Shown here piece after piece: positions 1 through 29,021 of a stretch of 64,000 nt of DNA. Positions within the stretch are counted from its first letter, which is position 1; each line of letters starts with the position of its first letter. Source of the stretch: Eledone cirrhosa (taxonomy: Eukaryota); assembly GCA_964016885.1 (NCBI GenBank), contig OZ024761.1, positions 17,732,001 to 17,796,000 on the forward strand. Reading direction: 5' to 3'. A model generated the notes under the pieces. It searched no databases, was not told where the DNA came from, and saw only the letters and a program-made list of their open reading frames with translations. Made by a program: the position numbers and the translations under genes.

Positions 1-459
1 TACGTGTTCAAAGCAAGCAAATTCCTTACAGTGTGAGGATAAAAAAAAAAATTTATGTTTTAAGTTGATTCGAAATCCAAACACGGCATTCCCCAGTTCT
101 ATGTCTTACCACTAGACTATAAAGACTTAACTGATTTTCTTCTTAATATATACATATATAAACTTATTTTCAGTCTAACAATAAAATAGCTTTAAATGTG
201 TCTATTTCCACTCTGTATTTGTTAGTCTGTAGGTGGCCATGTGGGTAGTTGAGGAGTATCTCCGCATCAATTGAGTGTGTATAGATTGGTGATAGGGTTT
301 CGATCTTCTACTTTATCTTAAATTTAAATAAGTTTTATTTTTTTCATCTAAAGAATGGTCTCCACCTTTTTATTAGTTCCCCCTCCGCTCGAACCTACAC
401 TACCTACACAACCACCAAGTGGCCGTAATTCTACTGCGCAAATTTCATATATTTAAATC

Positions 460-2660
460 TATTTTAGCATTTCTTTGATAAAGAACCACATACGATGTTT
501 GACATAATTGAAAAAAAAAAGAAAAAATATTATTTTACTATTTCATAAGCTCTGGCAGGTATCGAAAACCTCATATATGGATTCATTTTACTTACATCAT
601 AAACACACATATGTATATATAATAATAATTTTTTGATAACTTTTCAGTGACAAAATACATACATGGATAGGGTTTCCAATCTCAGAATATATCTCCACTA
701 GGAATGTGTGTGTGTGTATATCTTTATTATTCCTTTGAAAAGTAGTTTTAATTTTAAAAAATTATATATTTCACTATTTCTAAAGTCTTGGCAGATATTC
801 CATCTCCATCTATAGATTCATTTAAATACATTGTATTTGACTTACGTGAAATTCAATATATAATTTTTTTCTAAATTTTGTTTTCAAGTACCAAAATAAA
901 AACAAATTAGTAAGGTTTTCAGTCACTTAAATGCGTGATTGTTATAGACACTTAACTGTTGTTGTCGGGCTGTCATATTTACCGTCATGTGTGCATTTAA
1001 ATCTGACTGAGTCAATCCTCCCATTCTCCTGGTCTAAAAACGGCCTATTTATTTTACAGGAGAGAAAGCGAGATACCTTACTTATGCCTTTAAACGTTAA
1101 TTTTGCACTTGACTTATAATTCCCTTTCCTTCTCTTTAGATTGAAAAACAAAAATATTTTACGTCTACAATTATATTCAACATAATTCATGTCAGTCTTC
1201 ACAAGTTTTTGCTACATCTGATTCAAGCTGTTATGGCTTTGGGAGGAAAGTATCCAGCTAAGAATGTATTCCGTAGTAAGTGTCATAAGAAAGATTTGTA
1301 GGTCTAAGAAACCTAACAAATAGATTTCAAATTTGTCGGCAATTAAACAAAACTTTAAAATAAGCAATACTAAAGCCACAAACGTTTTTCTATCTACGTC
1401 TCAGCTGAAGAAAAAAAAAAAAAACAAACCGCTCGAATGATTACGAGGAGTGCAAATAGAGAAATATAGCTAATGAACCATTAATTTCTGTATTGTGTAA
1501 ACATACTCTAACACAGAAAAACATAACATTACCGTTTATGAACACATTTCGGAGTCATACTAACTAAATTTATTTTAGCATTTCTTCAATAAAGAACAAC
1601 ATACAGTGTTTGACATAATTGAAAAAAAATAATATTGTGTTACTATTAAGCTTTGGCAGATATTGAAATCCTATCTACAGATTCGTTTAAATATATTATA
1701 TTGGACTTAAAACTGAGGAAATTATTTTTAAACGTTTGTTTTCCAGTACCAAAATAAAAATACATTAGTAAGGTTTTCTGTCTCATAAATGCGTGGTTGT
1801 TATAGACACTTAACTATTGTTGTAGGGGTACCGTAATTACCGTCATGTGGGCATTTAAACCTGACCGAGTCAATCCTCCCCTCCTCCTGGTTTAATAACT
1901 GCCGATTTATTTTGCCAGAGAGAAAGAGATATTTTTCTTTTCTTTAAACGTTAATTTTGCACTTGGCTTATAATTCCTTTTTCTTCTCTTAGATTGAATA
2001 AACCTCAACAATTATATTCAACATAACTCATATTAGTATTCACAGTCAAGGACCTGTTTTTACTGTATCTGCTTCAAGATATTATAGGTGGGATAAGGCA
2101 GTACAACCCAAAATAAAGTGTCAAAAGAAGGGACACTGATATAAGGTTTGTTGGACTAAGCAACCGAAGAAATAGATTTTAAAGTTTTAGGCAATAATGA
2201 AGACAATTCTGACCAAGATTAGACTCTTACATCCATATTAGCCTCTGTCAATTCAGTAGACCACTGAACTTTATTCATAATCAGAAAACAAGGCCACTTA
2301 TTGACAATAGACCAGACAAAACATTTAACAACAATTACTACAGCGATGGTGCGAGAAGATCAGGGTTTCTAAATCAGAGAATGTTTCTTTAACACAAACG
2401 TATAAAAAGTAGAAGGGATATTGGCAGTGCATAGAACTAGGAAATAACTTCTATCAAATAGATTTTCTAGTGGCTAGGAACTTAGTAGCTCCAGTTATAA
2501 TTGTGTTACACAATGTTCAGTAAGTATTTTTCTATTGAAATCAAACTGAAAGGTATACTAAAGCCACAGACGTTTATATATATATATGTTTCATCTAAAG
2601 TAAAAAAAAAAACGTACGAATTATTACAAGCAGTGTAAGCACGAATTAAAGCTAATAAAT
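460..2660. repeat. Old internal direct duplication within the unit (sub-repeat A ~460-1480, sub-repeat B ~1570-2660)
   Basis: Both begin TATTTTAGCATTTCTT, share the ATGCGTG..GAGTCAATCCTCCC core and end with ACTAAAGCCACA.ACG...AGCTAAT. B has a ~350-bp insertion (~2195-2545). A has an extra partial copy (535-690 vs 770-930). Confidence 0.9.
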
Positions 2661-3611
2661 GTACCAAGAAGGCTACCTCAAGATTTGCAATTCATTCAAG
2701 AAGAAATCAAACTTATGCATATGTCGACGACATCATTATGGCTAGAGAGGACATGAAGAATCTACAACTAGAGGTGGAAGACAAGAGAAACGACCATCCT
2801 ACCTGAAATATTATATGTTATGATATTAAATATTTCTTATACTGTCATGTTTTTTTCTTTAAAACGTTTGCATCTCAATAAAGTGGAGAAAACTATTATA
2901 TACAGTTGTTATATCATTATACTTTAGTTTTAACTTATTATTTTTATCTCTTCACATTAGAAAGAATAAAAACTTAGTAAAATCCTATATGTGTATAAAT
3001 ATAATATATGAAAGTGTGTTTGAAAGTATATAATAATAATATGAATGTTGACAAAGAGTTGTAAAATCCAAGCAAGGCAACCTACAGTTTTACACTAACA
3101 GAGACGGCTTAGAAAACGTTACCTCTTCCAAACGAATGCGAAAGAGATTGTTTCGAAACTGCCGGTGTAACACTAAATATATTACCGGTGCAACTATTTT
3201 AGTTTACCCTTTTATAAACTCACTCCAGTCATTTCAAATCGTGTTCAGAGTACCGGCAATAAGAAAAAATAAAGCGTTTGCAAAGTTTCTAAATCTGCTA
3301 AAAATGAAAGATAAATCTCTCACTCTGTCTCCAATATGTAATAAACCGTGACTTATATATATATATTTGTATGTATGTGTGTATAAATATATATATATAT
3401 ATATATACCTAAGAATGTACATGCACACACACACGTATATGTATATATATTTATATGTATACATATATACATACATGCATATATACATCTGTGTCTATAT
3501 ATATATGTACATATATGTGTAAATATGTATATATATTAGTGTATATATATTGCTATGTATATGCATATTCGTATAATTATACTCTATATTATTAGTCCAT
3601 ATATTCATATA

Positions 3612-3845
3612 CAGTTATCCCCCCGGCATTCGTGGGGTTTACGGTCCTAGAGAACCCGAGAATAGTGAAAAACCGCGAATATTGTAGATGGTCCATAGAA
3701 ATGCCTATAAACCTCGAAATAAAACGTAAAATATAATAAAAATCGAGTGAGCGTTTTATGCGAAGGGGCGTCCAATAGGCCAGAAAATACAATATATTGT
3801 TGTTAATAATTTAGCGTTAAAACAATATATATTATCACGAAAAAG
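3612..3845 (+). mobile_element. pogo/Tigger-like (Tc1-mariner superfamily) left-end fragment
   Basis: TA followed by CAGTTATCCCCCCGGCATTCGTGGGG...CCGCGAATA resembles recalled Tigger/pogo termini. A second related end, CAGTGAACCCCGACATTCGCGGG, starts at ~4286. No transposase. Confidence 0.55.
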
Positions 3846-3860
3846 GCATATATATATATA

Positions 3861-4240
3861 TATTGATTTGACTGCTATCTCTAGCATACACTAGAAAAAA
3901 CCGGAGGTGGAGAAAATTGAAAAACTTCTTCTTTTTCCCCCCTCTAACTTTTCAAACAAAAGAATATTTTATGTAAACAAAAACGAAATTTTTGCCAAGA
4001 AAGATAACTCTTCTCTGACTTAAATCCAAAATTGGGATACAAAAAATTGCGGAATTTTTTTTTGCTTCCCAATTTTGGATTCAAGTCAGCGAAGAGTTAT
4101 CTTTCTTGGCAAAAATTTCGTTTTTGTTTACATAAAATTTCCTTTTGTTTAAAAAGTTAGAGGGGGAAAAAGAAGAAGTTTTTCAATATTCTCCGCTTCC
4201 GGTTTTTCTTTTTATGCTAGAAATAAGAGTGAAAGCAATA
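3861..4240. mobile_element. ~380-bp foldback palindrome (MITE-like) embedded in (TA)n; copies start at ~10033, 16201, 22374, 28601, 34747, 40911
   Basis: Arms of ~185 bp are near-perfect reverse complements, e.g. GAAAAACTTCTTCTTTTTCCCCCTCTAACTTTT / AAAAGTTAGAGGGGGAAAAAGAAGAAGTTTTTC and TTTTATGTAAACAAAAACGAAATTTTTGCCAAGAAAGATAACTCTTC / GAAGAGTTATCTTTCTTGGCAAAAATTTCGTTTTTGTTTACATAAAA. The loop is at ~4048-4052. Confidence 0.9.
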
Positions 4241-4289
<49 letters not shown>

Positions 4290-4547
4290 TGAACCCCGAC
4301 ATTCGCGGGCCCATTTATTTGCGGAATATTCCTTAGAACCTAAGTAATAGTGATATATATATATATAGAAATAGACATACATATATATATACACACATAT
4401 ATATCTATATATGTATGTGTGTATACATATATTTATGTATATATATAAGTATTTATAGGTATATATACATTTATACATATATATATATATACATACATAC
4501 ATACACACACATATATTTATATGTACACACACACACACACATATATA

Positions 4548-4583
<36 letters not shown>

Positions 4584-4645
4584 CTGTGCCAATCTATTGA
4601 GTACATTGTATTTATTGTGGTTTCTCCCCGGCAATCTACATACGC

Positions 4646-4678
<33 letters not shown>

Positions 4679-7600
4679 TATATATTTATATATATTTATT
4701 AGAAGAGGTAAGACGAGTCGCACCTCGTACCCAAAGTACGACATTTGGCTGCTAATTCTAGCAGGTTTAGAATTTACTATTTTCCAAACAGAATTTAACT
4801 TTACACCCCTCACTCTAAACTCGATTTCAAATTACCGGGGAGTTTGTTGAAGCAGGGTTCAACTGAAATATCTACACCGGTAACTTAATTAGTGTTACAC
4901 CGGTATCCCTGAGTCATAAACTATTTGGCATTCTTCGAAGGAGGTACTGGTTTTTTAGCTGTCTTAAATGGACTATATACGCACACAATGCATATACATA
5001 AATTAATGTTTTTCTCTGTAGAAAGAGATTGACATCATTTCTTAAATCATTATTTAGGGTTTTACAACAAAACATATTGTATGTGTAATTATACATACAT
5101 TGAATTTACGTATTTATTTTTTTTATTTTTACCTACACTTTAGTAGTATATATATATATTCATTTGTGTGTGCGTTCATTTCGTGGGTAACTGCAGTTAA
5201 CGTTCGTCTCGTGTTGGGTTTTATTACAGAGTTAAAGCGACTAGAGTGAGAATAAAAAAGTAAGAAAGATCGAAAACACTGTTGTATATAAATTTTATTG
5301 GCACATTAGAATTGTTACAATATTGATAGCTCGGAGTACAATCATAATATGTATATATTTTTCACATAAAATTAATATTCAAACTGACTCCAGTGTGTTT
5401 ATTTTAAAGCGACGTAATTCTACCTCCCAGAGATTTGAACACAGTTTCATGTTACTGGGTGGTACAATGAAGCAGAGAGAGTATAAATTCGCTACACTGG
5501 TGGCATATTTGGTGTTTCACCGGTTTTCTTATAACAACACACTGGATACGACTTGCATGATAGAGGTAATGTTTTATTTGTCTTCTGTGTTAGAGTATAA
5601 CTGTAGTTTGACTTGTTAAATTTATAGTATATATCTGTTATATATATTCTTAACTATGCTATGATAGCATCTCAATTACTAATTTCATCTCTTCGGAGGT
5701 TACTGCCCTGATGTCATCTCTTCCACTAAGACACTCTCCACAAGCTTGCCTCTCCTCGTATCATCACCCAAAGTTGTATCAATCTCCACAAAGCCAACAC
5801 TTCTCATTATGTCTAAGAAAGCCACCTCAAGCAAGTGTTTCGACGTGTGTGTGTAGAATAAACGCAAGGTTTGACGGAACAAGAAAATAAAAATTATTCC
5901 TTCTCATATATATATCTTGTACATTGTATTATATTAAGGTGTTTCTGTAAATTAAAGCAATGAAATTGACCCCTAAATTTAACGACACTTTTATATTAAC
6001 AGACATTCTTCATCTTCATAGTAAGTTAAATCAAGGGTTTACTACTTGGTGCATTTATGTGTCTTTGTCTTATCTCCAAATAAAGTTTTAAATAGTATGG
6101 CACGTTTATTTATATGCTGACTGTCTTACCACCAGAGAGAGTAAAATAAAGCTTTAAATGGCATGACTACGTGTTTAAAGCAAGCAAATTCCTTACAGTG
6201 TGAGGATAAAAAAAAAAATTAATGTTTTAAGTTGATTCGAAATCCAAACACGGCATTCCCCAGTTCTATGTCTTACCACTAGACTATAAAGACTTAACTG
6301 ATTTTCTTCTTAATATATACATATATAAACTTATTTTCAGTCTAACAATAAAATAGCTTTAAATGTGTCTATTTCCACTCTGTATTTGTTAGTCTGTAGG
6401 TGGCCATGTGGGTAGTTGAGGAGTATCTACGCATCAATTGAGTGTGTATAGATTGGTGATAGGGTTTCGATCTTCTACTTTATCTTAAATTTAAATAAGT
6501 TTTATTTTTTTCATCTAAAGAATGGTCTCCACCTTTTTATTAGTTCCCCCTCCGCTCGAACCTACACTACCTACACAACCACCAAGTGGCCGTAATTCTA
6601 CTGCGCAAATTTCATATATTTAAATCTATTTTAGCATTTCTTTGATAAAGAACCACATACGATGTTTGACATAATTGAAAAAAAAAAGAAAAAATATTAT
6701 TTTACTATTTCATAAGCTCTGGCAGGTATCGAAAACCTCATATATGGATTCATTTTACTTACATCATAAACACACATATGTATATATAATAATAATTTTT
6801 TGATAACTTTTCAGTGACAAAATACATACATGGATAGGGTTTCCAATCTCAGAATATATCTCCACTAGGAATGTGTGTGTGTGTATATCTTTATTATTCC
6901 TTTGAAAAGTAGTTTTAATTTTAAAAAATTATATATTTCACTATTTCTAAAGTCTTGGCAGATATTCCATCTCCATCTGTAGATTCATTTAAATACATTG
7001 TATTTGACTTACGTGAAATTCAATATATAATTTTTTTCTAAATTTTGTTTTCAAGTACCAAAATAAAAACAAATTAGTAAGGTTTTCAGTCACTTAAATG
7101 CGTGATTGTTATAGACACTTAGCTATTGCTGTCGGGCTGTCATATTTACCGTCATGTGTGCATTTAAATCTGACTGAGTCAATCCTCCCATTCTCCTGGT
7201 CTAAAAACGGCCTATTTATTTTACAGGAGAGAAAGCGAGATACCTTTCTTATGCCTTTAAACGTTAATTTTGCACTTGACTTATAATTCCCTTTCCTTCT
7301 CTTTAGATTGAAAAACAAAAATATTTTACGTCTACAATTATATTCAACATAATTCATGTCAGTCTTCACAAGTTTTTGCTACATCTGATTCAAGCTGTTA
7401 TGGCTTTGGGAGGAAAGTATCCAGCTAAGAATGTATTCCGTAGTAAGTGTCATAAGAAAGATTTGTAGGTCTAAGAAACCTAACAAATAGATTTCAAATT
7501 TGTCGGCAATTAAACAAAACTTTAAAATAAGCAATACTAAAGCCACAAACGTTTTTCTATCTGCGTCTCATCTGAAGAAAAAAAAACAAAACAAACCGCT

Positions 7601-10412
7601 CGAATGATTACGAGGAGTGCAAATAGAGAAATATAGCTAATGAACCATTAATTTCTGTATTGTGTAAACATACTCTAACACAGAAAAACATAACATTACC
7701 GTTTATGAACACATTTCGGAGTCATACTAACTAAATTTATTTTAGCATTTCTTCAATAAAGAACAACATACAGTGTTTGACATAATTGGAAAAAAATAAT
7801 ATTGTGTTACTATTAAGCTTTGGCAGATATTGAAATCCTATCTACAGATTCGTTTAAATATATTATATTGGACTTAAAACTGAGGAAATTATTTTTAAAC
7901 GTTTGTTTTCCAGTACCAAAATAAAAATACATTAGTAAGGTTTTCTGTCTCATAAATGCGTGGTTGTTATAGACACTTAACTATTGTTGTAGGGGTACCG
8001 TAATTACCGTCATGTGGGCATTTAAACCTGACCGAGTCAATCCTCCCCTCCTCCTGGTTTAATAACTGCCGATTTATTTTGCCAGAGAGAAAGAGATATT
8101 TTTCTTTTCTTTAAACGTTAATTTTGCACTTGGCTTATAATTCCTTTTTCTTCTCTTAGATTGAATAAACCTCAACAATTATATTCAACATAACTCATAT
8201 TAGTATTCACAGTCAAGGACCTGTTTTTACTGTATCTGCTTCAAGATATAGGTGGGATAAGGCAGTACAACCCAAAATAAAGTGTCAAAAGAAGGGACAC
8301 TGATATAAGGTTTGTTGGACTAAGCAACCAAAGAAATAGATTTTAAAGTTTTAGGCAATAATGAAGACAATTCTGACCAAGATTAGACTCTTACATCCAT
8401 ATTAGCCTCTGTCAATTCAGTAGACCACTGAACTTTATTCATAATCAGAAAACAAGGCCACTTATTGACAATAGACCAGACAAAACATTTAACAACAATT
8501 ACTACAGCGATGGTGCGAGAAGATCAGGGTTTCTAAATCAGAGAATGTTTCTTTAACACAAACGTATAAAAAGTAGAAGGGATATTGGCAGTGCATAGAA
8601 CTAGGAAATAACTTCTATCAAATAGATTTTCTAGTGGCTAGGAACTTAGTAGCTCCAGTTATAATTGTGTTACACAATGTTCAGTAAGTATTTTTCTATT
8701 GAAATCAAACTGAAAGGTATACTAAAGCCACAGACGTTTATATATATATATGTTTCATCTAAAGTAAAAAAAACGTACGAATTATTACAAGCAGTGTAAG
8801 CACGAATTAAAGCTAATAAATGTACCAAGAAGGCTACCTCAAGATTTGCAATTCATTCAAGAAGAAATCAAACTTATGCATATGTCGACGACATCATTAT
8901 GGCTAGAGAGGACATGAAGAATCTACAACTAGAGGTGGAAGACAAGAGAAACGACCATCCTACCTGAAATATTATATGTTATGATATTAAATATTTCTTA
9001 TACTGTCATGTTTTTTTCTTTAAAACGTTTGCATCTCAATAAAGTGGAGAAAACTATTATATACAGTTGTTATATCATTATACTTTAGTTTTAACTTATT
9101 ATTTTTATCTCTTCACATTAGAAAGAATAAAAACTTAGTAAAATCCTATATGTGTATAAATATAATATATGTAAGTGTGTTTGAAAGTATATAATAATAA
9201 TAATATGAATGTTGACAAAGAGTTGTAAAATCCAAGCAAGGCAACCTACAGTTTTACACTAACAGAGACGGCTTAGAAAACGTTACCTCTTCCAAACGAA
9301 TGCGAAAGAGATTGTTTCGAAACTGCCGGTGTAACACTAAATATATTACCGGTGCAACTATTTTAGTTTACCCTTTTATAAACTCACTCCAGTCATTTCA
9401 AATCGTGTTCAGAGTACCGGCAATAAGAAAAAATAAAGCGTTTGCAAAGTTTCTAAATCTGCTAAAAATGAAAGATAAATCTCTCACTCTGTCTCCAATA
9501 TGTAATAAACCGTGACTTATATATATATATTTGTATGTATGTGTGTATAAATATATATATATATATATATACCTAAGAATGTACATGCACACACACACGT
9601 ATATGTATATATATTTATATGTATACATATATACATACATGCATATATACATCTGTGTCTATATATATATGTACATATATGTGTAAATATGTATATATAT
9701 TAGTGTATATATATTGCTATGTATATGCATATTCGTATAATTATACTCTATATTATTAGTCCATATATTCATATACAGTTATCCCCCCCCCCCCGGCATT
9801 CGTGGGGTTTACGGTCCTAGAGAACCCGAGAATAGTGAAAAACCGCGAATATTGTAGATGGTTCATAGAAATGCCTATAAACCTCGAAATAAAACGTAAA
9901 ATATAATAAAAATCGAGTGAGCGTTTTATGCGAAGGGGCGTCCAATAGGCCAGAAAATACAATATATTGTTGTTAATAATTTAGCGTTAAAACAATATAT
10001 ATTATCACGAAAAAGGCATATATATATATATATATTGATTTGACTGCTATCTCTAGCATACACTAGAAAAAACCGGAGGTGGAGAAAATTGAAAAACTTC
10101 TTCTTTTTCCCCCCTCTAACTTTTCAAACAAAAGAATATTTTATGTAAACAAAAACGAAATTTTTGCCAAGAAAGATAACTCTTCTCTGACTTAAATCCA
10201 AAATTGGGATACAAAAAATTGCGGAATTTTTTTTTGCATCCCAATTTTGGATTTAAGTCAGCGAAGAGTTATCTTTCTTGGCAAAAATTTCGTTTTTGTT
10301 TACATAAAATTTCCTTTTGTTTAAAAAGTTAGAGGGGGAAAAAGAAGAAGTTTTTCAATATTCTCCGCTTCCGGTTTTTCTTTTTATGCTAGAAATAAGA
10401 GTGAAAGCAATA

Positions 10413-10481
<69 letters not shown>

Positions 10482-10733
10482 TGAACCCCGACATTCGCGG
10501 GCCCATTTATTTGCGGAATATTCCTTAGAACCTAAGTAATAGTGATATATATATATATAGAAATAGACATACATATATATATACACACATATATATCTAT
10601 ATATGTATGTGTGTATACATATATTTATGTATATATATAAGTATTTATATGTATATATACATTTATACATATATATATATATACATACATACATACACAC
10701 ACATATATTTATATGTACACACACACACACACA

Positions 10734-10792
<59 letters not shown>

Positions 10793-10853
10793 TGTGCCAA
10801 TCTATTGAGTACATTGTATTTATTGTGGTTTCTCCCCGGCAATCTACATACGC

Positions 10854-10888
<35 letters not shown>

Positions 10889-13800
10889 TATATATTTATA
10901 TATATTTATTAGAAGAGGTAAGACGAGTCGCACCTCGTACCCAAAGTACGACATTTGGCTGCTAATTCTAGCAGGTTTAGAATTTACTATTTTCCAAACA
11001 GAATTCTACTTTACACCTTTCACTCTAAACTCGATTTCAAATTACCGGGGAGTTTGTTGAAGCAGGGTTCAACTGAAATATCTACACCGGTAACTTAATT
11101 AGTGTTACACCGGTATCCCTGAGTCATAAACTATTTGGCATTCTTCGAAGGAGGTACTGGTTTTTTAGCTGTTTTAAATGGACTATATACGCACACAATG
11201 CATATACATAAATTAATGTTTTTCTCTGTAGAAAGAGATTGACATCATTTCTTAAATCATTATTTAGGGTTTTACAACAAAACATATTGTATGTGTAATT
11301 ATACATACATTGAATTTACGTATTTATTTTTTTTATTTTTACCTACACTTTAGTAGTATATATATATATTCATTTGTGTGTGCGTTCATTTCGTGGGTAA
11401 CTGCAGTTAACGTTCGTCTCGTGTTGGGTTTTATTACAGAGTTAAAGCGACTAGAGTGAGAATAAAAAAGTAAGAAAGATCGAAAACACTGTTGTATATA
11501 AATTTTATTGGCACATTAGAATTGTTACAATATTGATAGCTCGGAGTACAATCATAATATGTATATATTTTTCACATAAAATTAATATTCAAACTGACTC
11601 CAGTGTGTTTATTTTAAAGCGACGTAATTCTACCTCCCAGAGATTTGAACACAGTTTCATGTTACTGGGTGGTACAATGAAGCAGAGAGAGTATAAATTC
11701 GCTACACTGGTGGCATATTTGGTGTTTCACCGGTTTTCTTATAACAACACACTGGATACGACTTGCATGATAGAGGTAATGTTTTATTTGTCTTCTGTGT
11801 TAGAGTATAACTGTAGTTTGACTTGTTAAATTTATAGTATATATCTGTTATATATATTCTTAACTATGCTATGATAGCATCTCAATTACTAATTTCATCT
11901 CTTCGGAGGTTACTGCCCTGATGTCATCTCTTCCACTAAGACACTCTCCACAAGCTTGCCTCTCCTCGTATCATCACCCAAAGTTGTATCAATCTCCACA
12001 AAGCCAACACTTCTCATTATGTCTAAGAAAGCCACCTCAAGCAAGTGTTTCGACGTGTGTGTGTAGAATAAACGCAAGGTTTGACGGAACAAGAAAATAA
12101 AAATTATTCCTTCTCATATATATATCTTGTACATTGTATTATATTAAGGTGTTTCTGTAAATTAAAGCAATGAAATTGACCCCTAAATTTAACGACACTT
12201 TTATATTAACAGACATTCTTCATCTTCATAGTAAGTTAAATCAAGGGTTTACTACTTGGTGCATTTATGTGTCTTTGTCTTATCTCCAAATAAAGTTTTA
12301 AATAGTATGGCACGTTTATTTATATGCTGACTGTCTTACCACCAGAGAGAGTAAAATAAAGCTTTAAATGGCATGACTACGTGTTCAAAGCAAGCAAATT
12401 CCTTACAGTGTGAGGATAAAAAAAAAATTAATGTTTTAAGTTGATTCGAAATCCAAACACGGCATTCCCCAGTTCTATGTCTTACCACTAGACTATAAAG
12501 ACTTAACTGATTTTCTTCTTAATATATACATATATAAACTTATTTTCAGTCTAACAATAAAATAGCTTTAAATGTGTCTATTTCCACTCTGTATTTGTTA
12601 GTCTGTAGGTGGCCATGTGGGTAGTTGAGGAGTATCTACGTATCAATTGAGTGTGTATAGATTGGTGATAGGGTTTCGATCTTCTACTTTATCTTAAATT
12701 TAAATAAGTTTTATTTTTTTCATCTAAAGAATGGTCTCCACCTTTTTATTAGTTCCCCCTCCGCTCGAACCTACACAACCACCAAGTGGCCGTAATTCTA
12801 CTGCGCAAATTTCATATATTTAAATCTATTTTAGCATTTCTTTGATAAAGAACCACATACGATGTTTGACATAATTGAAAAAAAAAGAAAAAATATTATT
12901 TTACTATTTCATAAGCTCTGGCAGGTATCGAAAACCTCATATATGGATTCATTTTACTTACATCATAAACACACATATGTATATATAATAATAATTTTTT
13001 GATAACTTTTCAGTGATAAAATACATACATGGATAGGGTTTCCAATCTCAGAATATATCTCCACTAGGAATGTGTGTGTGTGTGTATATCTTTATTATTC
13101 CTTTGAAAAGTAGTTTTAATTTTAAAAAATTATATATTTCACTATTTCCAAAGTCTTGGCAGATATTCCATCTCCATCTATAGATTCATTTAAATACATT
13201 GTATTTGACTTACGTGAAATTAAATATATAATTTTTTTCTAAATTTTGTTTTCAAGTACCAAAATAAAAACAAATTAGTAAGGTTTTCAGTCACTTAAAT
13301 GCGTGATTGTTATAGACACTTAGCTATTGTTGTCGGGCTGTCATATTTACCGTCATGTGTGCATTTAAATCTGACTGAGTCAATCCTCCCATTCTCCTGG
13401 TCTAAAAACGGCCTATTTATTTTACAGGAGAGAAAGCGAGATACCTTTCTTATGCCTTTAAACGTTAATTTTGCACTTGACTTATAATTCCCTTTCCTTC
13501 TCTTTAGATTGAAAAACAAAAATATTTTACGTCTACAATTATATTCAACATAATTCATGTCAGTCTTCACAAGTTTTTGCTACATCTGATTCAAGCTGTT
13601 ATGGCTTTGGGAGGAAAGTATCCAGCTAAGAATGTATTCCGTAGTAAGTGTCATAAGAAAGATTTGTAGGTCTAAGAAACCTAACAAATAGATTTCAAAT
13701 TTGTCGGCAATTAAACAAAACTTTAAAATAAGCAATACTAAAGCCACAAACGTTTTTCTATCTACGTCTCAGCTGAAGAAAATAAAACAAAACAAACCGC

Positions 13801-16580
13801 TCGAATGATTACGAGGAGTGCAAATAGAGAAATATAGCTAATGAACCATTAATTTCTGTATTGTGTAAACATACTCTAACACAGAAAAACATAACATTAC
13901 CGTTTATGAACACATTTCGGAGTCATACTAACTAAATTTATTTTAGCATTTCTTCAATAAAGAACAACATACAGTGTTTGACATAATTGAAAAAAAATAA
14001 TATTGTGTTACTATTAAGCTTTGGCAGATATTGAAATCCTATCTACAGATTCGTTTAAATATATTATATTGGACTTAAAACTGAGGAAATTATTTTTAAA
14101 CGTTTGTTTTCCAGTACCAAAATAAAAATACATTAGTAAGGTTTTCTGTCTCATAAATGCGTGGTTGTTATAGACACTTAACTATTGTTGTAGGGGTACC
14201 GTAATTACCGTCATGTGGGCATTTAAACCTGACTGAGTCAATCCTCCCCTCCTCCTGGTTTAAAAACTGCCGATTTATTTTGCCAGAGAGAAAGAGATAT
14301 TTTTCTTTTCTTTAAACGTTAATTTTGCACTTGGCTTATAATTCCTTTTTCTTCTCTTAGATTGAATAAACCTCAACAATTATATTCAACATAACTCATA
14401 TTAGTATTCACAGTCAAGGACCTGTTTTTACTGTATCTGCTTCAAGATATTATAGGTGGGATAAGGCAGTACAACCCAAAATAAAGTGTCAAAAGAAGGG
14501 ACACTGATATAAGGTTTGTTGGACTAAGCAACCGAAGAAATAGATTTTAAAGTTTTAGGCAATAATGAAGACAATTCTGACCAAGATTAGACTCTTACAT
14601 CTATATTAGCCTCTGTCAATTCAGTAGACCACTGAACTTTATTCATAATCAGAAAACAAGGCCACTTATTGACAATAGACCAGACAAAACATTTAACAAC
14701 AATTACTACAGCGATGGTGCGAGAAGATCAGGGTTTCTAAATCAGAGAATGTTTCTTTAACACAAACGTATAAAAAGTAGAAGGGATATTGGCAGTGCAT
14801 AGAACTAGGAAATAACTTCTATCAAATAGATTTTCTAGTGGCTAGGAACTTAGTAGCTCCAGTTATAATTGTGTTACACATGTTCAGTAAGTATTTTTCT
14901 ATTGAAATCAAGCTGAAAGGTATACTAAAGCCACAGACGTTTATATATATATATGTTTCATCTAAAGTTTAAAAAAAAACGTACGAATTATTACAAGCAG
15001 TGTAAGCACGAATTAAAGCTAATAAATGTACCAAGAAGGCTACCTCAAGATTTGCAATTCATGAAGAAATCAAACTTATGCATATGTCGACGACATCATT
15101 ATGGCTAGAGAGGACATGAAGAATCTACAACTAGAGGTGGAAGACAAGAGAAACGACCATCCTACCTGAAATGTTATGATATTAAATATTTCTTATACTG
15201 TCATGTTTTTTTCTTTAAAACGTTTGCATCTCAATAAAGTGGAGAAAACTATTATATACAGTTGTTATATCATTATACTTTAGTTTTAACTTATTATTTC
15301 TATCTCTTCACATTAGAAAGAATAAAAACTTAGTAAAATCCTATATGTGTATAAATATAATATATGTAAGTGTGTTTGAAAGTATATAATAATAATATGA
15401 ATGTTGACAAAGAGTTGTAAAATCCAAGCAAGGCAACCTACAGTTTTACACTAACAGAGACGGCTTAGAAAACGTTACCTCTTCCAAACGAATGCGAAAG
15501 AGATTGTTTCGAAACTGCCGGTGTAACACTAAATATATTACCGGTGCAACTATTTTAGTTTACCCTTTTATAAACTCACTCCAGTCATTTCAAATCGTGT
15601 TCAGAGTACCGGCAATAAGAAAAAATAAAGCGTTTGCAAAGTTTCTAAATCTGCTAAAAATGAAAGATAAATCTCTCACTCTGTCTCCAATATCTAATAA
15701 ACCGTGACTTATATATATTTGTGTGTATAAATATATATATATATATACCTAAGAATGTACATACACACACACACGTATATGTATATATATTTATATGTAT
15801 ACATATATACATACATGCATATATACATCTGTGTCTATATATATATGTACATATATGTGTAAATATGTATATATATTAGTGTATATATATTGCTATGTAT
15901 ATGCATATTCGTATAATTATACTCTATATTATTAGTCCATATATTCATATACAGTTATCCCCCCGGCATTCGTGGGGTTTACGGTCCTAGAGAACCCGAG
16001 AATAGTGAAAAACCGCGAATATTGTAGATGGTCCATAGAAATGCCTATAAACCTCGAAATAAAACGTAAAATATAATAAAAATCGAGTGAGCGTTTTATG
16101 CGAAGGGGCGTCCAATAGGCCAGAAAATACAATATATTGTTGTTAATAATTTAGCGTTAAAACAATATATATTATCACGAAAAAGGCATATATATATATA
16201 TATTGATTTGACTGCTATCTCTAGCATACACTAGAAAAAACCGGAGGTGGAGAAAATTGAAAAACTTCTTCTTTTTCCCCCCTCTAACTTTTCAAACAAA
16301 AGAATATTTTATGTAAACAAAAACGAAATTTTTGCCAAGAAAGATAACTCTTCTCTGACTTAAATCCAAAATTGGGATACAAAAAATTGCGGAATTTTTT
16401 TTTGCTTCCCAATTTTGGATTCAAGTCAGCGAAGAGTTATCTTTCTTGGCAAAAATTTCGTTTTTGTTTACATAAAATTTCCTTTTGTTTAAAAAGTTAG
16501 AGGGGGAAAAAGAAGAAGTTTTTCAATATTCTCCGCTTCCGGTTTTTCTTTTTATGCTAGAAATAAGAGTGAAAGCAATA

Positions 16581-16631
<51 letters not shown>

Positions 16632-16889
16632 TGAACCCCGACATTCGCGGGCCCATTTATTTGCGGAATATTCCTTAGAACCTAAGTAATAGTGATATAT
16701 ATATATATAGAAATAGACATACATATATATATACACACATATATATCTATATATGTATGTGTGTATACATATATTTATGTATATATATAAGTATTTATAG
16801 GTATATATACATTTATACATATATATATATATACATACATACATACACACACATATATTTATATGTACACACACACACACACATATATA

Positions 16890-16925
<36 letters not shown>

Positions 16926-16987
16926 CTGTGCCAATCTATTGAGTACATTGTATTTATTGTGGTTTCTCCCCGGCAATCTACATACGC

Positions 16988-17020
<33 letters not shown>

Positions 17021-20000
17021 TATATATTTATATATATTTATTAGAAGAGGTAAGACGAGTCGCACCTCGTACCCAAAGTACGACATTTGGCTGCTAATTC
17101 TAGCAGGTTTAGAATTTACTATTTTCCAAACAGAATTCTACTTTACACCCCTCACTCTAAACTCGATTTCAAATTACCGGGGAGTTTGTTGAAGCAGGGT
17201 TCAACTGAAATATCTACACCGGTAACTTAATTAGTGTTACACCGGTATCCCTGAGTCATAAACTATTTGGCATTCTTCGAAGGAGGTACTGGTTTTTTAG
17301 CTGTCTTAAATGGACTATATACGCACACAATGCATATACATAAATTAATGTTTTTCTCTGTAGAAAGAGATTGACATCATTTCTTAAATCATTATTTAGG
17401 GTTTTACAACAAAACATATTGTATGTGTAATTATACATACATTGAATTTACGTATTTATTTTTTTTATTTTTACCTACACTTTAGTAGTATATATATATA
17501 TTCATTTGTGTGTGCGTTCATTTCGTGGGTAACTGCAGTTAACGTTCGTCTCGTGTTGGGTTTTATTACAGAGTTAAAGCGACTAGAGTGAGAATAAAAA
17601 AGTAAGAAAGATCGAAAACACTGTTGTATATAAATTTTATTGGCACATTAGAATTGTTACAATATTGATAGCTCGGAGTACAATCATAATATGTATATAT
17701 TTTTCACATAAAATTAATATTCAAACTGACTCCAGTGTGTTTATTTTAAAGCGACGTAATTCTACCTCCCAGAGATTTGAACACAGTTTCATGTTACTGG
17801 GTGGTACAATGAAGCAGAGAGAGTATAAATTCGCTACACTGGTGGCATATTTGGTGTTTCACCGGTTTTCTTATAACAACACACTGGATACGACTTGCAT
17901 GATAGAGGTAATGTTTTATTTGTCTTCTGTGTTAGAGTATAACTGTAGTTTGACTTGTTAAATTTATAGTATATATCTGTTATATATATTCTTAACTATG
18001 CTATGATAGCATCTCAATTACTAATTTCATCTCTTCGGAGGTTACTGCCCTGATGTCATCTCTTCCACTAAGACACTCTCCACAAGCTTGCCTCTCCTCG
18101 TATCATCACCCAAAGTTGTATCAATCTCCACAAAGCCAACACTTCTCATTATGTCTAAGAAAGCCACCTCAAGCAAGTGTTTCGACGTGTGTGTGTAGAA
18201 TAAACGCAAGGTTTGACGGAACAAGAAAATAAAAATTATTCCTTCTCATATATATATCTTGTACATTGTATTATATTAAGGTGTTTCTGTAAATTAAAGC
18301 AATGAAATTGACCCCTAAATTTAACGACACTTTTATATTAACAGACATTCTTCATCTTCATAGTAAGTTAAATCAAGGGTTTACTACTTGGTGCATTTAT
18401 GTGTCTTTGTCTTATCTCCAAATAAAGTTTTAAATAGTATGGCACGTTTATTTATATGCTGACTGTCTTACCACCAGAGAGAGTAAAATAAAGCTTTAAA
18501 TGGCATGACTACGTGTTTAAAGCAAGCAAATTCCTTACAGTGTGAGGATAAAAAAAAAAAATAATGTTTTAAGTTGATTCGAAATCCAAACACGGCATTC
18601 CCCAGTTCTATGTCTTACCACTAGACTATAAAGACTTAACTGATTTTCTTCTTAATATATACATATATAAACTTATTTTCAGTCTAACAATAAAATAGCT
18701 TTAAATGTGTCTATTTCCACTCTGTATTTGTTAGTCTGTAGGTGGCCATGTGGGTAGTTGAGGAGTATCTACGCATCAATTGAGTGTGTATAGATTGGTG
18801 ATAGGGTTTCGATCTTCTACTTTATCTTAAATTTAAATAAGTTTTATTTTTTTCATCTAAAGAATGGTCTCCACCTTTTTATTAGTTCCCCCTCCGCTCG
18901 AACCTACACTACCTACACAACCACCAAGTGGCCGTAATTCTACTGCGCAAATTTCATATATTTAAATCTATTTTAGCATTTCTTTGATAAAGAACCACAT
19001 ACGATGTTTGACATAATTGAAAAAAAAAAGAAAAAATATTATTTTACTATTTCATAAGCTCTGGCAGGTATCGAAAACCTCATATATGGATTCATTTTAC
19101 TTACATCATAAACACACATATGTATATATAATAATAATTTTTTGATAACTTTTCAGTGACAAAATACATACATGGATAGGGTTTCCAATCTCAGAATATA
19201 TCTCCACTAGGAATGTGTGTGTGTGTATATCTTTATTATTCCTTTGAAAAGTAGTTTTAATTTTAAAAAATTATATATTTCACTATTTCTAAAGTCTTGG
19301 CAGATATTCCATCTCCATCTGTAGATTCATTTAAATACATTGTATTTGACTTACGTGAAATTCAATATATAATTTTTTTCTAAATTTTGTTTTCAAGTAC
19401 CAAAATAAAAACAAATTAGTAAGGTTTTCAGTCACTTAAATGCGTGATTGTTATAGACACTTAGCTATTGCTGTCGGGCTGTCATATTTACCGTCATGTG
19501 TGCATTTAAATCTGACTGAGTCAATCCTCCCATTCTCCTGGTCTAAAAACGGCCTATTTATTTTACAGGAGAGAAAGCGAGATACCTTTCTTATGCCTTT
19601 AAACGTTAATTTTGCACTTGACTTATAATTCCCTTTCCTTCTCTTTAGATTGAAAAACAAAAATATTTTACGTCTACAATTATATTCAACATAATTCATG
19701 TCAGTCTTCACAAGTTTTTGCTACATCTGATTCAAGCTGTTATGGCTTTGGGAGGAAAGTATCCAGCTAAGAATGTATTCCGTAGTAAGTGTCATAAGAA
19801 AGATTTGTAGGTCTAAGAAACCTAACAAATAGATTTCAAATTTGTCGGCAATTAAACAAAACTTTAAAATAAGCAATACTAAAGCCACAAACGTTTTTCT
19901 ATCTACGTCTCATCTGAAGAAAAAAAAACAAAACAAACCGCTCGAATGATTACGAGGAGTGCAAATAGAGAAATATAGCTAATGAACCATTAATTTCTGT

Positions 20001-22753
20001 ATTGTGTAAACATACTCTAACACAGAAAAACATAACATTACCGTTTATGAACACATTTCGGAGTCATACTAACTAAATTTATTTTAGCATTTCTTCAATA
20101 AAGAACAACATACAGTGTTTGACATAATTGGAAAAAAATAATATTGTGTTACTATTAAGCTTTGGCAGATATTGAAATCCTATCTACAGATTCGTTTAAA
20201 TATATTATATTGGACTTAAAACTGAGGAAATTATTTTTAAACGTTTGTTTTCCAGTACCAAAATAAAAATACATTAGTAAGGTTTTCTGTCTCATAAATG
20301 CGTGGTTGTTATAGACACTTAACTATTGTTGTAGGGGTACCGTAATTACCGTCATGTGGGCATTTAAACCTGACCGAGTCAATCCTCCCCTCCTCCTGGT
20401 TTAATAACTGCCGATTTATTTTGCCAGAGAGAAAGAGATATTTTTCTTTTCTTTAAACGTTAATTTTGCACTTGGCTTATAATTCCTTTTTCTTCTCTTA
20501 GATTGAATAAACCTCAACAATTATATTCAACATAACTCATATTAGTATTCACAGTCAAGGACCTGTTTTTACTGTATCTGCTTCAAGATATTATAGGTGG
20601 GATAAGGCAGTACAACCCAAAATAAAGTGTCAAAAGAAGGGACACTGATATAAGGTTTGTTGGACTAAGCAACCAAAGAAATAGATTTTAAAGTTTTAGG
20701 CAATAATGAAGACAATTCTGACCAAGATTAGACTCTTACATCCATATTAGCCTCTGTCAATTCAGTAGACCACTGAACTTTATTCATAATCAGAAAACAA
20801 GGCCACTTATTGACAATAGACCAGACAAAACATTTAACAACAATTACTACAGCGATGGTGCGAGAAGATCAGGGTTTCTAAATCAGAGAATGTTTCTTTA
20901 ACACAAACGTATAAAAAGTAGAAGGGATATTGGCAGTGCATAGAACTAGGAAATAACTTCTATCAAATAGATTTTCTAGTGGCTAGGAACTTAGTAGCTC
21001 CAGTTATAATTGTGTTACACAATGTTCAGTAAGTATTTTTCTATTGAAATCAAACTGAAAGGTATACTAAAGCCACAGACGTTTATATATATATATGTTT
21101 CATCTAAAGTAAAAAAAACGTACGAATTATTACAAGCAGTGTAAGCACGAATTAAAGCTAATAAATGTACCAAGAAGGCTACCTCAAGATTTGCAATTCA
21201 TTCAAGAAGAAATCAAACTTATGCATATGTCGACGACATCATTATGGCTAGAGAGGACATGAAGAATCTACAACTAGAGGTGGAAGACAAGAGAAACGAC
21301 CATCCTACCTGAAATATTATATGTTATGATATTAAATATTTCTTATACTGTCATGTTTTTTTCTTTAAAACGTTTGCATCTCAATAAAGTGGAGAAAACT
21401 ATTATATACAGTTGTTATATCATTATACTTTAGTTTTAACTTATTATTTTTATCTCTTCACATTAGAAAGAATAAAAACTTAGTAAAGTCCTATATGTGT
21501 ATAAATATAATATATGTAAGTGTGTTTGAAAGTATATAATAATAATAATATGAATGTTGACAAAGAGTTGTAAAATCCAAGCAAGGCAACCTACAGTTTT
21601 ACACTAACAGAGACAGCTTAGAAAACGTTACCTCTTCCAAACGAATGCGAAAGAGATTGTTTCGAAACTGCCGGTGTAACACTAAATATATTACCGGTGC
21701 AACTATTTTAGTTTACCCTTTTATAAACTCACTCCAGTCATTTCAAATCGTGTTCAGAGTACCGGCAATAAGAAAAAATAAAGCGTTTGCAAAGTTTCTA
21801 AATCTGCTAAAAATGAAAGATAAATCTCTCACTCTGTCTCCAATATGTAATAAACCGTGACTTATATATATATATTTGTATGTATGTGTGTATAAATATA
21901 TATATATATATATATATATACCTAAGAATGTACATGCACACACACACGTATATGTATATATATTTATATGTATACATATATACATACATGCATATATACA
22001 TCTGTGTCTATATATATATGTACATATATGTGTAAATATGTATATATATTAGTGTATATATATTGCTATGTATATGCATATTCGTATAATTATACTCTAT
22101 ATTATTAGTCCATATATTCATATACAGTTATCCCCCCGGCATTCGTGGGGTTTACGGTCCTAGAGAACCCGAGAATAGTGAAAAACCGCGAATATTGTAG
22201 ATGGTCCATAGAAATGCCTATAAACCTCGAAATAAAACGTAAAATATAATAAAAATCGAGTGAGCGTTTTATGCGAAGGGGCGTCCAATAGGCCAGAAAA
22301 TACAATATATTGTTGTTAATAATTTAGCGTTAAAACAATATATATTATCACGAAAAAGGCATATATATATATATATTGATTTGACTGCTATCTCTAGCAT
22401 ACACTAGAAAAAACCGGAGGTGGAGAAAATTGAAAAACTTCTTCTTTTTCCCCCCTCTAACTTTTCAAACAAAAGAATATTTTATGTAAACAAAAACGAA
22501 ATTTTTGCCAAGAAAGATAACTCTTCTCTGACTTAAATCCAAAATTGGGATACAAAAAATTGCGGAATTTTTTTTTGCATCCCAATTTTGGATTCAAGTC
22601 AGCGAAGAGTTATCTTTCTTGGCAAAAATTTCGTTTTTGTTTACATAAAATTTCCTTTTGTTTAAAAAGTTAGAGGGGGAAAAAGAAGAAGTTTTTCAAT
22701 ATTCTCCGCTTCCGGTTTTTCTTTTTATGCTAGAAATAAGAGTGAAAGCAATA

Positions 22754-22834
<81 letters not shown>

Positions 22835-23094
22835 TGAACCCCGACATTCGCGGGCCCATTTATTTGCGGAATATTCCTTAGAACCTAAGTAATAGTGATA
22901 TATATATATAGAGAAATAGACATACATATATATATATACACACATATATATCTATATATGTATGTGTGTATACATATATTTATGTATATATATAAGTATT
23001 TATAGGTATATATACATTTATACATATATATATATATACATACATACATACACACACATATATTTATATGTACACACACACACACACATATATA

Positions 23095-23155
<61 letters not shown>

Positions 23156-23216
23156 TGTGCCAATCTATTGAGTACATTGTATTTATTGTGGTTTCTCCCC
23201 GGCAATCTACATACGC

Positions 23217-23247
<31 letters not shown>

Positions 23248-26200: not shown

Positions 26201-28980
26201 TATAGCTAATGAACCATTAATTTCTGTATTGTGTAAACATACTCTAACACAGAAAAACATAACATTACCGTTTATGAACACATTTCGGAGTCATACTAAC
26301 TAAATTTATTTTAGCATTTCTTCAATAAAGAACAACATACAGTGTTTGACATAATTGGAAAAAAATAATATTGTGTTACTATTAAGCTTTGGCAGATATT
26401 GAAATCCTATCTACAGATTCGTTTAAATATATTATATTGGACTTAAAACTGAGGAAATTATTTTTAAACGTTTGTTTTCCAGTACCAAAATAAAAATACA
26501 TTAGTAAGGTTTTCTGTCTCATAAATGCGTGGTTGTTATAGACACTTAACTATTGTTGTAGGGGTACCGTAATTACCGTCATGTGGGCATTTAAACCTGA
26601 CCGAGTCAATCCTCCCCTCCTCCTGGTTTAATAACTGCCGATTTATTTTGCCAGAGAGAAAGAGATATTTTTCTTTTCTTTAAACGTTAATTTTGCACTT
26701 GGCTTATAATTCCTTTTTCTTCTCTTAGATTGAATAAACCTCAACAATTATATTCAACATAACTCATATTAGTATTCACAGTCAAGGACCTGTTTTTACT
26801 GTATCTGCTTCAAGATATAGGTGGGATAAGGCAGTACAACCCAAAATAAAGTGTCAAAAGAAGGGACACTGATATAAGGTTTGTTGGACTAAGCAACCAA
26901 AGAAATAGATTTTAAAGTTTTAGGCAATAATGAAGACAATTCTGACCAAGATTAGACTCTTACATCCATATTAGCCTCTGTCAATTCAGTAGACCACTGA
27001 ACTTTATTCATAATCAGAAAACAAGGCCACTTATTGACAATAGACCAGACAAAACATTTAACAACAATTACTACAGCGATGGTGCGAGAAGATCAGGGTT
27101 TCTAAATCAGAGAATGTTTCTTTAACACAAACGTATAAAAAGTAGAAGGGATATTGGCAGTGCATAGAACTAGGAAATAACTTCTATCAAATAGATTTTC
27201 TAGTGGCTAGGAACTTAGTAGCTCCAGTTATAATTGTGTTACACAATGTTCAGTAAGTATTTTTCTATTGAAATCAAACTGAAAGGTATACTAAAGCCAC
27301 AGACGTTTATATATATATATGTTTCATCTAAAGTAAAAAAAACGTACGAATTATTACAAGCAGTGTAAGCACGAATTAAAGCTAATAAATGTACCAAGAA
27401 GGCTACCTCAAGATTTGCAATTCATTCAAGAAGAAATCAAACTTATGCATATGTCGACGACATCATTATGGCTAGAGAGGACATGAAGAATCTACAACTA
27501 GAGGTGGAAGACAAGAGAAACGACCATCCTACCTGAAATATTATATGTTATGATATTAAATATTTCTTATACTGTCATGTTTTTTTCTTTAAAACGTTTG
27601 CATCTCAATAAAGTGGAGAAAACTATTATATACAGTTGTTATATCATTATACTTTAGTTTTAACTTATTATTTTTATCTCTTCACATTAGAAAGAATAAA
27701 AACTTAGTAAAATCCTATATGTGTATAAATATAATATATGTAAGTGTGTTTGAAAGTATATAATAATAATAATATGAATGTTGACAAAGAGTTGTAAAAT
27801 CCAAGCAAGGCAACCTACAGTTTTACACTAACAGAGACGGCTTAGAAAACGTTACCTCTTCCAAACGAATGCGAAAGAGATATTTCGAAACTGCCGGTGT
27901 AACACTAAATATATTACCGGTGCAACTATTTTAGTTTACCCTTTTATAAACTCACTCCAGTCATTTCAAATCGTGTTCAGAGTACCGGCAATAAGAAAAA
28001 ATAAAGCGTTTGCAAAGTTTCTAAATCTGCTAAAAATGAAAGATAAATCTCTCACTCTGTCTCCAATATGTAATAAACCGTGACTTATATATATATATTT
28101 GTATGTATGTGTGTATAAATATATATATATATATATATACCTAAGAATGTACATGCACACACACACGTATATGTATATATATTTATATGTATACATATAT
28201 ACATACATGCATATATACATCTGTGTCTATATATATATGTACATATATGTGTAAATATGTATATATATTAGTGTATATATATTGCTATGTATATGCATAT
28301 TCGTATAATTATACTCTATATTATTAGTCCATATATTCATATACAGTTATCCCCCCCTCCCCGGCATTCGTGGGGTTTACGGTCCTAGAGAACCCGAGAA
28401 TAGTGAAAAACCGCGAATATTGTAGATGGTTCATAGAAATGCCTATAAACCTCGAAATAAAACGTAAAATATAATAAAAATCGAGTGAGCGTTTTATGCG
28501 AAGGGGCGTCCAATAGGCCAGAAAATACAATATATTGTTGTTAATAATTTAGCGTTAAAACAATATATATTATCACGAAAAAGGCATATATATATATATA
28601 TATTGATTTGACTGCTATCTCTAGCATACACTAGAAAAAACCGGAGGTGGAGAAAATTGAAAAACTTCTTCTTTTTCCCCCCTCTAACTTTTCAAACAAA
28701 AGAATATTTTATGTAAACAAAAACGAAATTTTTGCCAAGAAAGATAACTCTTCTCTGACTTAAATCCAAAATTGGGATACAAAAAATTGCGGAATTTTTT
28801 TTTGCATCCCAATTTTGGATTTAAGTCAGCGAAGAGTTATCTTTCTTGGCAAAAATTTCGTTTTTGTTTACATAAAATTTCCTTTTGTTTAAAAAGTTAG
28901 AGGGGGAAAAAGAAGAAGTTTTTCAATATTCTCCGCTTCCGGTTTTTCTTTTTATGCTAGAAATAAGAGTGAAAGCAATA

Positions 28981-29021
<41 letters not shown>

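What the first reader, a model, noticed from the sequence alone, without database searches (positions are those of the whole stretch)
3058..5068. Nested 2-kb inverted-repeat structure in every unit
Seen: diverged outer arms of ~300 bp (centre of symmetry ~4030) enclose TA/CA/TG microsatellite blocks on both sides (3355-3600, 4240-4700) and a near-perfect inner palindrome (centre ~4050), so the symmetry axes almost coincide. Inference: either an old long-TIR transposon with later nested insertions, or a duplicated divergent regulatory pair. If transcribed it folds into a long multi-segment dsRNA repeated at least 7 times, a candidate hairpin-RNA/endo-siRNA locus or ADAR substrate. Extensive A-to-I editing in coleoids is established. 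A cruciform-prone core might also have driven the amplification.
Basis: partly seen in the sequence, partly recalled or inferred. Interest (0 to 1): 0.7.

Follow-up and report, generated by a model that had tools for sequence, protein, structure and literature searches.

The report
Self-repairing palindrome inside a macrosatellite
This is a real mirror-image stretch in a 6.2-kb non-coding unit repeated about 90 times in this genome; its core likely stays symmetric because DNA repair copies one arm onto the other, and no RNA run was available to test whether it makes a hairpin RNA.

Summary
The nested inverted repeat is real: inner arms 3860-4046/4058-4240 are about 90% alike, outer arms only about 150 bp at 79% (60% overall). 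It sits in a 6.2-kb non-coding macrosatellite unit with at least 88 copies: seven arrays on one chromosome-sized contig, two copies on another. It is not a TIR transposon. Both arm types occur unpaired elsewhere, each unit holds a third outer-arm copy, and no target-site duplication was found. An outer-then-inner half-unit recurs in other repeat families, so the structure is most likely an old mirror duplication of that half-unit. A diverged copy keeps a 465-bp spacer that the arrays have lost. The inner arms share array-specific mutations, and identity falls from 97.5% to 88% outward with no G-U excess, which points to DNA-level arm-to-arm repair. A derivative without the palindrome has 110 copies, so this palindrome is not needed for amplification. 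Transcription is untested, and one published survey found no dedicated siRNA pathway in molluscs. The scan's earlier notes show no match. Mostly ordinary; the open lead is a conserved splice-donor-like site in the outer modules.

The parts
1..44615 (+). Tandem array of a 6.15-6.22-kb non-coding unit (7.2 units in the window; the array starts about 7 kb upstream)
   Evidence: L023
3075..3330 (-). Outer module O1 (left outer arm), with a short ACCGGT-type hairpin at 3162-3190 and a splice-donor-like GAG|GTAACG at 3123|3122; function inferred only
3354..3600 (.). Degenerate (TA/CA/TG)n microsatellite; pairs with any TA block
3612..3848 (+). 5' part of a dispersed ~360-bp TA-flanked MITE (T), cut off at its 3' side
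3860..4046 (+). Inner module M, left arm
4047..4057 (.). 11-nt spacer, remnant of a ~465-bp spacer kept in a diverged unit at C22:13.10 Mb
4058..4240 (-). Inner module M, right arm
4241..4284 (.). (TA)n run, variable in length between units
4287..4352 (-). 3' end of MITE T, inverted relative to the 5' part at 3612-3848
4353..4699 (.). Two (TA/CA)n microsatellite blocks with a short unique stretch between them
4740..4975 (+). Outer module O2 (right outer arm), hairpin 4875-4903, donor-like GAG|GTACTG at 4943|4944
5410..5615 (+). Third outer module O3, same orientation as O2, donor-like GAG|GTAATG at 5565|5566; outside the finding

Best explanation
The stretch is a decayed mirror-image pair inside a non-coding 6.2-kb macrosatellite, likely made by an old inverted duplication and likely kept symmetric at its core by DNA repair that copies one arm onto the other, with no function shown. 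Steps: (1, inferred) a half-unit made of outer module O, microsatellite and inner module M was duplicated back-to-back around a TA/CA run, probably by fold-back priming; (2, shown by comparison) the lineage of the young arrays lost about 465 bp of central spacer, leaving 11 nt; (3, pattern shown, mechanism inferred) template switching or gene conversion keeps homogenising the arms nearest the centre while the periphery decays, and a MITE fragment came to lie on both sides; (4, shown) the whole 6.2-kb unit is amplified into at least seven arrays on one contig; (5, shown) other derivatives lack the palindrome altogether.
For: O followed by M in the same orientation occurs in 14 of 17 non-C22 loci fetched from outer-motif hits (selected loci, many of them copies of one amplified unit). 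M is unpaired or in direct copies in 14, and in tail-to-tail pairs in 22, of 38 loci. The diverged unit L061+L022 has the same arms with anchors 561 bp apart, against 94-96 in 71 of 73 array palindromes. Its two arms are 98.8% alike in the inner half but 93% alike to array arms and group together in the tree (95/78). In the 17.0-Mb array both arms carry the same private allele at one site in 9 units (10 left and 9 right arms carry it; 1.2 expected), and at two more sites. Left-right identity is 97.5% in the inner half, 87.6% in the outer half, 69-80% for the mirrored MITE end and 60% for O1/O2. Mismatches show no G-U excess: 22 would be G-U on the + strand, 35 on the - strand, 59 are transversions (counts from array consensuses, not independent). 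88 exact left-arm motifs map the arrays; 110 copies of a junction lacking 3050-4846, also seen in runs X1 and X2. Arm homogenisation by template switching: PMC8604942 (abstract).
Against: The O tree is unresolved: O1+O2 has 81/71 support, and O1+Oc (p-AU 0.32) and O1+O3 (0.13) are not rejected, so O2 need not come from the same duplication as the inner arms. The mirrored MITE end is no closer to the left-hand MITE (45 of 56) than to dispersed copies (up to 59 of 72). Shared alleles on both arms are also what selection on an RNA stem would leave. Array-specific alleles are a few events spread by array homogenisation, not many independent ones; 3 of the 74 palindromes are duplicate fetches. AG|GTA persists in 21 of 22 O rows, which neutral decay does not predict well.
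Confidence: 0.62

Rival explanations
1. Same structure, but functional: O1, O2 and O3 are promoter or first-exon modules of an amplified, unannotated non-coding gene family, and O1/O2 are transcribed outward from a shared central enhancer (M).
For: AG|GTA, donor-like, in 21 of 22 O rows across four subfamilies that are 52-71% alike, pointing away from the centre in O1 and O2. The hairpin motif is kept in all subfamilies. An ACCGGAAGT word (ETS-like, recalled) is kept in M of both families. O sits in tandem units on C18, C20, C22, C23 and C25.
Against: Clustering of invariant columns is not significant (1 run against 0.29 expected, p = 0.27), and several copies were found through the hairpin motif itself. 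Between arrays O is no better conserved than its flanks or an RT-like scrap. No Pfam match above cut-off for 9 ORFs, no Rfam family at gathering score, no C2H2 motif in 710 kb of fetched loci.
Confidence: 0.15
2. The outer arms are two separately placed paralogues of module O that happen to flank a younger inner palindrome; only the inner ~500 bp per side was ever duplicated.
For: O1 is closer to the unpaired Oc (71%) than to O2 (60%); a third copy lies 450 bp from O2; single O2-type copies occur at C7 (L021) and elsewhere.
Against: O2 lies at the mirror distance from the centre (4032 against 4052) and shares a tail with O1; the best tree does hold O1 and O2 on one side, weakly.
Confidence: 0.12
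3. A selected hairpin-RNA locus (endo-siRNA source or ADAR substrate).
For: A 381-nt hairpin at -228 kcal/mol, z = -32.6; in the 2-kb fold O1 pairs with O2 (160 pairs on +, 137 on -); the inner arm halves are the least changed part against the oldest unit (95% and 92%).
Against: No G-U bias; conversion explains the low divergence; PMC12479628 (passages) finds no dedicated siRNA pathway in molluscs; the Rfam miRNA hits over the hairpin are far below gathering scores.
Confidence: 0.06
4. An old long-TIR (foldback-type) transposon with nested insertions, or a two-armed retro-insertion into (TA)n like those the scan noted for hammerhead repeats in this genome.
For: The inner arms abut (TA)n on both outer ends; M also rides inside an 801-bp element with ~45-bp TIRs (L041); real MITE pieces are present.
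Against: No TSD; no empty site found; arms occur unpaired and in direct copies; part of an unrelated MITE is mirrored on both sides in the diverged unit; no hammerhead family match.
Confidence: 0.05

Closest known systems
Macrosatellites (DXZ4 and other human arrays; PMC3081327, PMC3018141, search listing only)
   Same: Kilobase-size units in head-to-tail arrays, homogenised within arrays (98.5% here) more than between them.
   Different: AT-rich mosaic of MITE, LINE-like and microsatellite pieces; at least seven arrays in both orientations on one contig; an internal palindrome in each unit.
Arm-to-arm conversion in sex-chromosome palindromes (PMC3723533, bioRxiv 10.1101/800185; listing) and quasi-palindrome template switching (PMC8604942; abstract)
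   Same: The two arms share derived alleles and are closer to each other than to orthologous arms.
   Different: Arms of about 200 bp, between the two known size ranges; non-coding; present in about 90 replicate copies with an identity gradient from the centre.
Drosophila hairpin-RNA loci (PMC10292708; listing)
   Same: A long imperfect inverted repeat predicted to fold as one stem.
   Different: No transcript, small RNA or target gene shown; siRNA pathway reported absent in molluscs (PMC12479628).
Tc1/mariner-type MITEs (family features recalled)
   Same: Element T has TA on both sides and ~24-bp imperfect TIRs in dispersed copies.
   Different: It applies to the passenger T only, which is split and partly inverted here, not to the 2-kb structure.

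Membership tests
Macrosatellite | Unit over 1 kb in head-to-tail arrays | tested here: met
   6.15-6.22-kb units; 88 exact motifs in 7 arrays on C22 and 2 on C24
Macrosatellite | Units more alike within than between arrays | tested here: met
   About 98.5% within the window; 85-88% whole-unit BLAST identity and 88-99% per segment between arrays
Macrosatellite | Copy-number polymorphism between individuals | not testable with these tools
   One assembly; contig depths are not copy numbers
TIR transposon (2-kb structure as one element) | Matched terminal inverted repeats with sharp ends | tested here: not met
   Outer arms 60% alike with no defined ends; three modules per unit
TIR transposon (2-kb structure as one element) | Target-site duplication or empty site | tested here: not met
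   Only one 7-8-bp direct match, inside the left arm, over all tested end pairs; the deleted form keeps part of O2, so it is not an empty site
TIR transposon (2-kb structure as one element) | Dispersed copies of the whole element | tested here: not met
   Paired O1+O2 motifs in the listed matches lie in arrays; outside them the listed copies are single (100 of 199 matches listed)
Palindrome under arm-to-arm repair | Arms share lineage-specific derived alleles | tested here: met
   Three sites in the 17.0-Mb array, four in the diverged 13.1-Mb unit
Palindrome under arm-to-arm repair | Conversion events seen directly in pedigrees or populations | not testable with these tools
   No population data over the palindrome
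Hairpin-RNA / endo-siRNA locus | Long fold-back stem | tested here: met
   Predicted only
Hairpin-RNA / endo-siRNA locus | Transcribed through both arms and diced to phased 21-22-nt RNAs | not testable with these tools
   Needs RNA and small-RNA reads
Hairpin-RNA / endo-siRNA locus | G-U pairs favoured among arm differences on one strand | tested here: inconclusive
   22 against 35 transition mismatches by strand, 59 transversions; counts not independent
Tc1/mariner-type MITE (passenger T only) | TA on both sides, short TIRs, many dispersed copies, no ORF | tested here: met
   TA|CAGT..ACTG|TA in L142, L143, L151, and nearly so in L141, L152, among 11 aligned dispersed copies; 2553 first-look candidates, 40 scored; superfamily name recalled

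The most novel reading that the evidence does not exclude
The outer modules are conserved promoter and first-exon cassettes of an undescribed non-coding gene family amplified to hundreds of copies on the small chromosomes, and in this subfamily a back-to-back pair shares a central palindromic enhancer whose two halves are kept identical by arm-to-arm repair, so that read-through also yields a long ADAR substrate from about 90 loci.
Probability: 0.12. Interest if true: 0.6.

Novelty: new member of a known kind. Interest (0 to 1): 0.25.

Why it matters
If the main reading holds, this is a compact natural experiment: about 90 replicate copies of a 200-bp-arm palindrome in arrays of different age, in which the reach and rate of arm-to-arm repair, spacer loss and whole-palindrome deletion can be measured in an invertebrate. 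It is also a caution: changes shared by both arms look like compensatory RNA-stem evolution but can come from DNA repair alone. It would matter more only if the outer modules prove to be transcribed.

Tried and rejected
Rfam at gathering score and ARAGORN on the window: nothing. Rfam by E-value on 1-6400: 69 sub-threshold hits, nearly all on the hairpin or microsatellites. Pfam on 9 of 38 stop-to-stop ORFs: nothing above cut-off. Zinc-finger cluster link: no C2H2 motif in 710 kb of fetched loci; the genome-wide motif listing stopped before C22, so this is not settled. Sequencing runs: no RNA holder listed. Runs X1, X2, X4 and X5 laid on 4705-9510, beside the palindrome, gave flat depth, balanced change types and no GT..AG joint among the 15 of 44 joints shown; they look like genomic DNA and say nothing on expression; the palindrome core itself was not covered. 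Metagenome scan for the outer motif: 1 hit, a chance match in an unrelated coding repeat. Idea that the inner palindrome is the junction of tandem TIR elements: rejected once L061 showed a spacer between the arms. Idea that the GCTGCTATTTCTAGCA word is a splice acceptor: rejected, since it faces inward in M and outward in O and is part of an old dispersed repeat (2259 and 703 exact hits for two variants). Claim that O1 and O2 are not sisters: withdrawn. O1 alone does not fold better than shuffles (z = -0.38). Earlier notes near this place or on this sequence: none relevant.

Full report
Setting. The window is G000:C22:17732001-17796000 in a 3.0-Gb genome. Bases 1-44615 are a tandem array of a 6.15-6.22-kb unit at about 98.5% identity. 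Units differ at 25 substitution columns within the finding, and public runs hold the flanking parts of the unit, so the family is not an assembly artefact. An exact 29-bp left-arm motif occurs 88 times: arrays at 15.1, 16.4, 17.0, 17.7, 18.2, 18.9 and 30.6 Mb of C22, in both orientations, and twice on C24. No tRNA, Rfam family or Pfam domain above cut-off was found.

Observation. The inner palindrome is real (178 of 196 aligned bases, centre 4052, 11-nt spacer). The outer match is real but shorter and weaker than stated: 115 of 145 bases at 3102-3251/4812-4964, score 84 against a shuffle maximum of 33, and 60% over 162 shared columns. The microsatellite blocks pair only because TA runs are self-complementary; an unrelated block scores higher. 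If the 2 kb were transcribed, the predicted fold pairs the inner arms and also O1 with O2 on either strand.

What the parts are. The outer arm (O) is a module of about 250 bp with a short ACCGGT-type hairpin. Each unit has three copies: O1, O2 and O3 at 5410-5615. Another subfamily, Oc, lies unpaired in tandem units on C18, C20, C23 and C25 (135 motif hits against 26 controls; 17 of 19 fetched hits were real). A lone O2-type piece lies between a LINE-like fragment and a microsatellite on C7. The inner arm (M) is also a mobile module: unpaired or in direct copies in 14, tail-to-tail in 22, absent in 2 of 38 selected loci; in L041 it rides in an 801-bp element with ~45-bp terminal inverted repeats and no visible TSD. 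Between O1 and M lies the 5' part of a ~360-bp TA-flanked MITE with 2553 first-look candidates in the genome; its 3' end lies on the other side of the palindrome, inverted.

History. In 14 of 17 loci of the Oc family, O is followed by M in the same orientation as O1 and the left arm here, so an O-M half-unit is older than this array. A diverged unit at C22:13.10 Mb (75-79% identity) has the same arms around a ~465-bp spacer with a TA/CA core, a whole MITE on one side and its 3' end mirrored on the other. Anchor distance is 561 bp there and 94-96 bp in 71 of 73 array palindromes, so the spacer was lost once before the arrays spread. A junction that removes 3050-4846 occurs 110 times, mainly on C18, C20 and C25 among the 100 listed, and in runs X1 and X2: these sequences amplify without this palindrome.

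Why the core stays symmetric. Across 74 palindromes (3 are duplicate fetches), left-right identity is 97.5% in the inner half and 87.6% in the outer half. The arms of the diverged unit are 98.8% alike in the inner half but 93% alike to array arms, and they group together. In the 17.0-Mb array both arms carry the same private allele in 9 units where 1.2 are expected, with two more such sites. This is the pattern described for template switching between inverted-repeat arms (PMC8604942, abstract) and for gene conversion in large palindromes (PMC3723533, listing). Fold-back at inverted repeats as a source of inverted duplications is described in yeast (PMC10164571, abstract). Selection on an RNA stem could leave a like pattern, but there is no clear G-U excess (22 on +, 35 on -, 59 transversions; not independent counts). 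These are a few events spread by array homogenisation, not dozens.

What is not settled. The O tree cannot tell whether O1 and O2 are one duplication (81/71 support; alternatives p-AU 0.32 and 0.13), and the mirrored MITE end is no closer to its partner than to dispersed copies. AG|GTA is kept in 21 of 22 O rows and faces outward in O1 and O2, which is the one hint of function; but invariant columns do not cluster more than chance (p = 0.27) and O is no better conserved between arrays than its flanks. Expression could not be tested. A survey of molluscan small RNAs reports no dedicated siRNA pathway, while allowing that editing may act on dsRNA (PMC12479628, passages), so an endo-siRNA role is unlikely and incidental editing of read-through RNA remains possible.

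Comparison and novelty. It meets the tested features of a macrosatellite and of a palindrome under arm-to-arm repair, and fails those of a single TIR element. Three searches listed no paper on this repeat. A curated Octopus vulgaris repeat annotation exists (PMC13282606, part 1 of 3 read); I did not see its library, which may hold T, M or O. The scan's earlier notes on this genome describe other mosaic macrosatellites and two-armed hammerhead insertions into (TA)n; the latter gave a rival that the data do not favour. Verdict: new member of a known kind, interest 0.25.

Noticed in passing
window 44591-44626: The array's right end carries a perfect 13-bp inverted repeat around a 10-nt loop, followed by a 92% copy of unit bases 598-1052: a possible template-switch footprint.
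   Followed up: no
window 749-1343 and 1616-2195; 445-588 and 1555-1688: Older internal duplications (75-79%). On the - strand the larger module has a G-rich box, a TGACTCA-like word and, in L022:2400-2440, TATAAAT: promoter-like by eye (motif names recalled).
   Followed up: partly
window 2690-2810: Reverse-transcriptase-like scrap (YAYVDDII), also present in C23 and C25 units; no Pfam match.
   Followed up: partly
C18, C20, C23, C25 (L053-L060, L062-L078): A second, larger family of 7-15-kb and higher-order tandem units with O, a spaced M palindrome, Helitron-like and LINE-like fragments.
   Followed up: partly
L041:3691-4491 (C1:1.106 Mb): 801-bp element with ~45-bp terminal inverted repeats starting CAGTGG (hAT-like, recalled) that carries module M; pieces recur in many C18 loci; no TSD seen.
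   Followed up: partly
genome-wide: The word CTGCTATTTCTAGCA recurs in O, in M and in an old dispersed repeat (2259 and 703 exact hits for two longer variants); it resembles a MEF2 site (recalled).
   Followed up: partly
L021:4799-5070 (C7:91.89 Mb): A lone 270-bp O2-type piece joined directly to a 5'-truncated LINE-like fragment; could be a template jump or a chance insertion.
   Followed up: no
L061:8153-8594 and 791-1231: Two further, unrelated ~440-bp palindromes (87-89%) near the diverged unit; this region seems prone to fold-back duplications.
   Followed up: no
window 50112-50445 and 53721-54054: Inverted pair of 48-49-bp minisatellite blocks about 3.3 kb apart, beyond the array.
   Followed up: no
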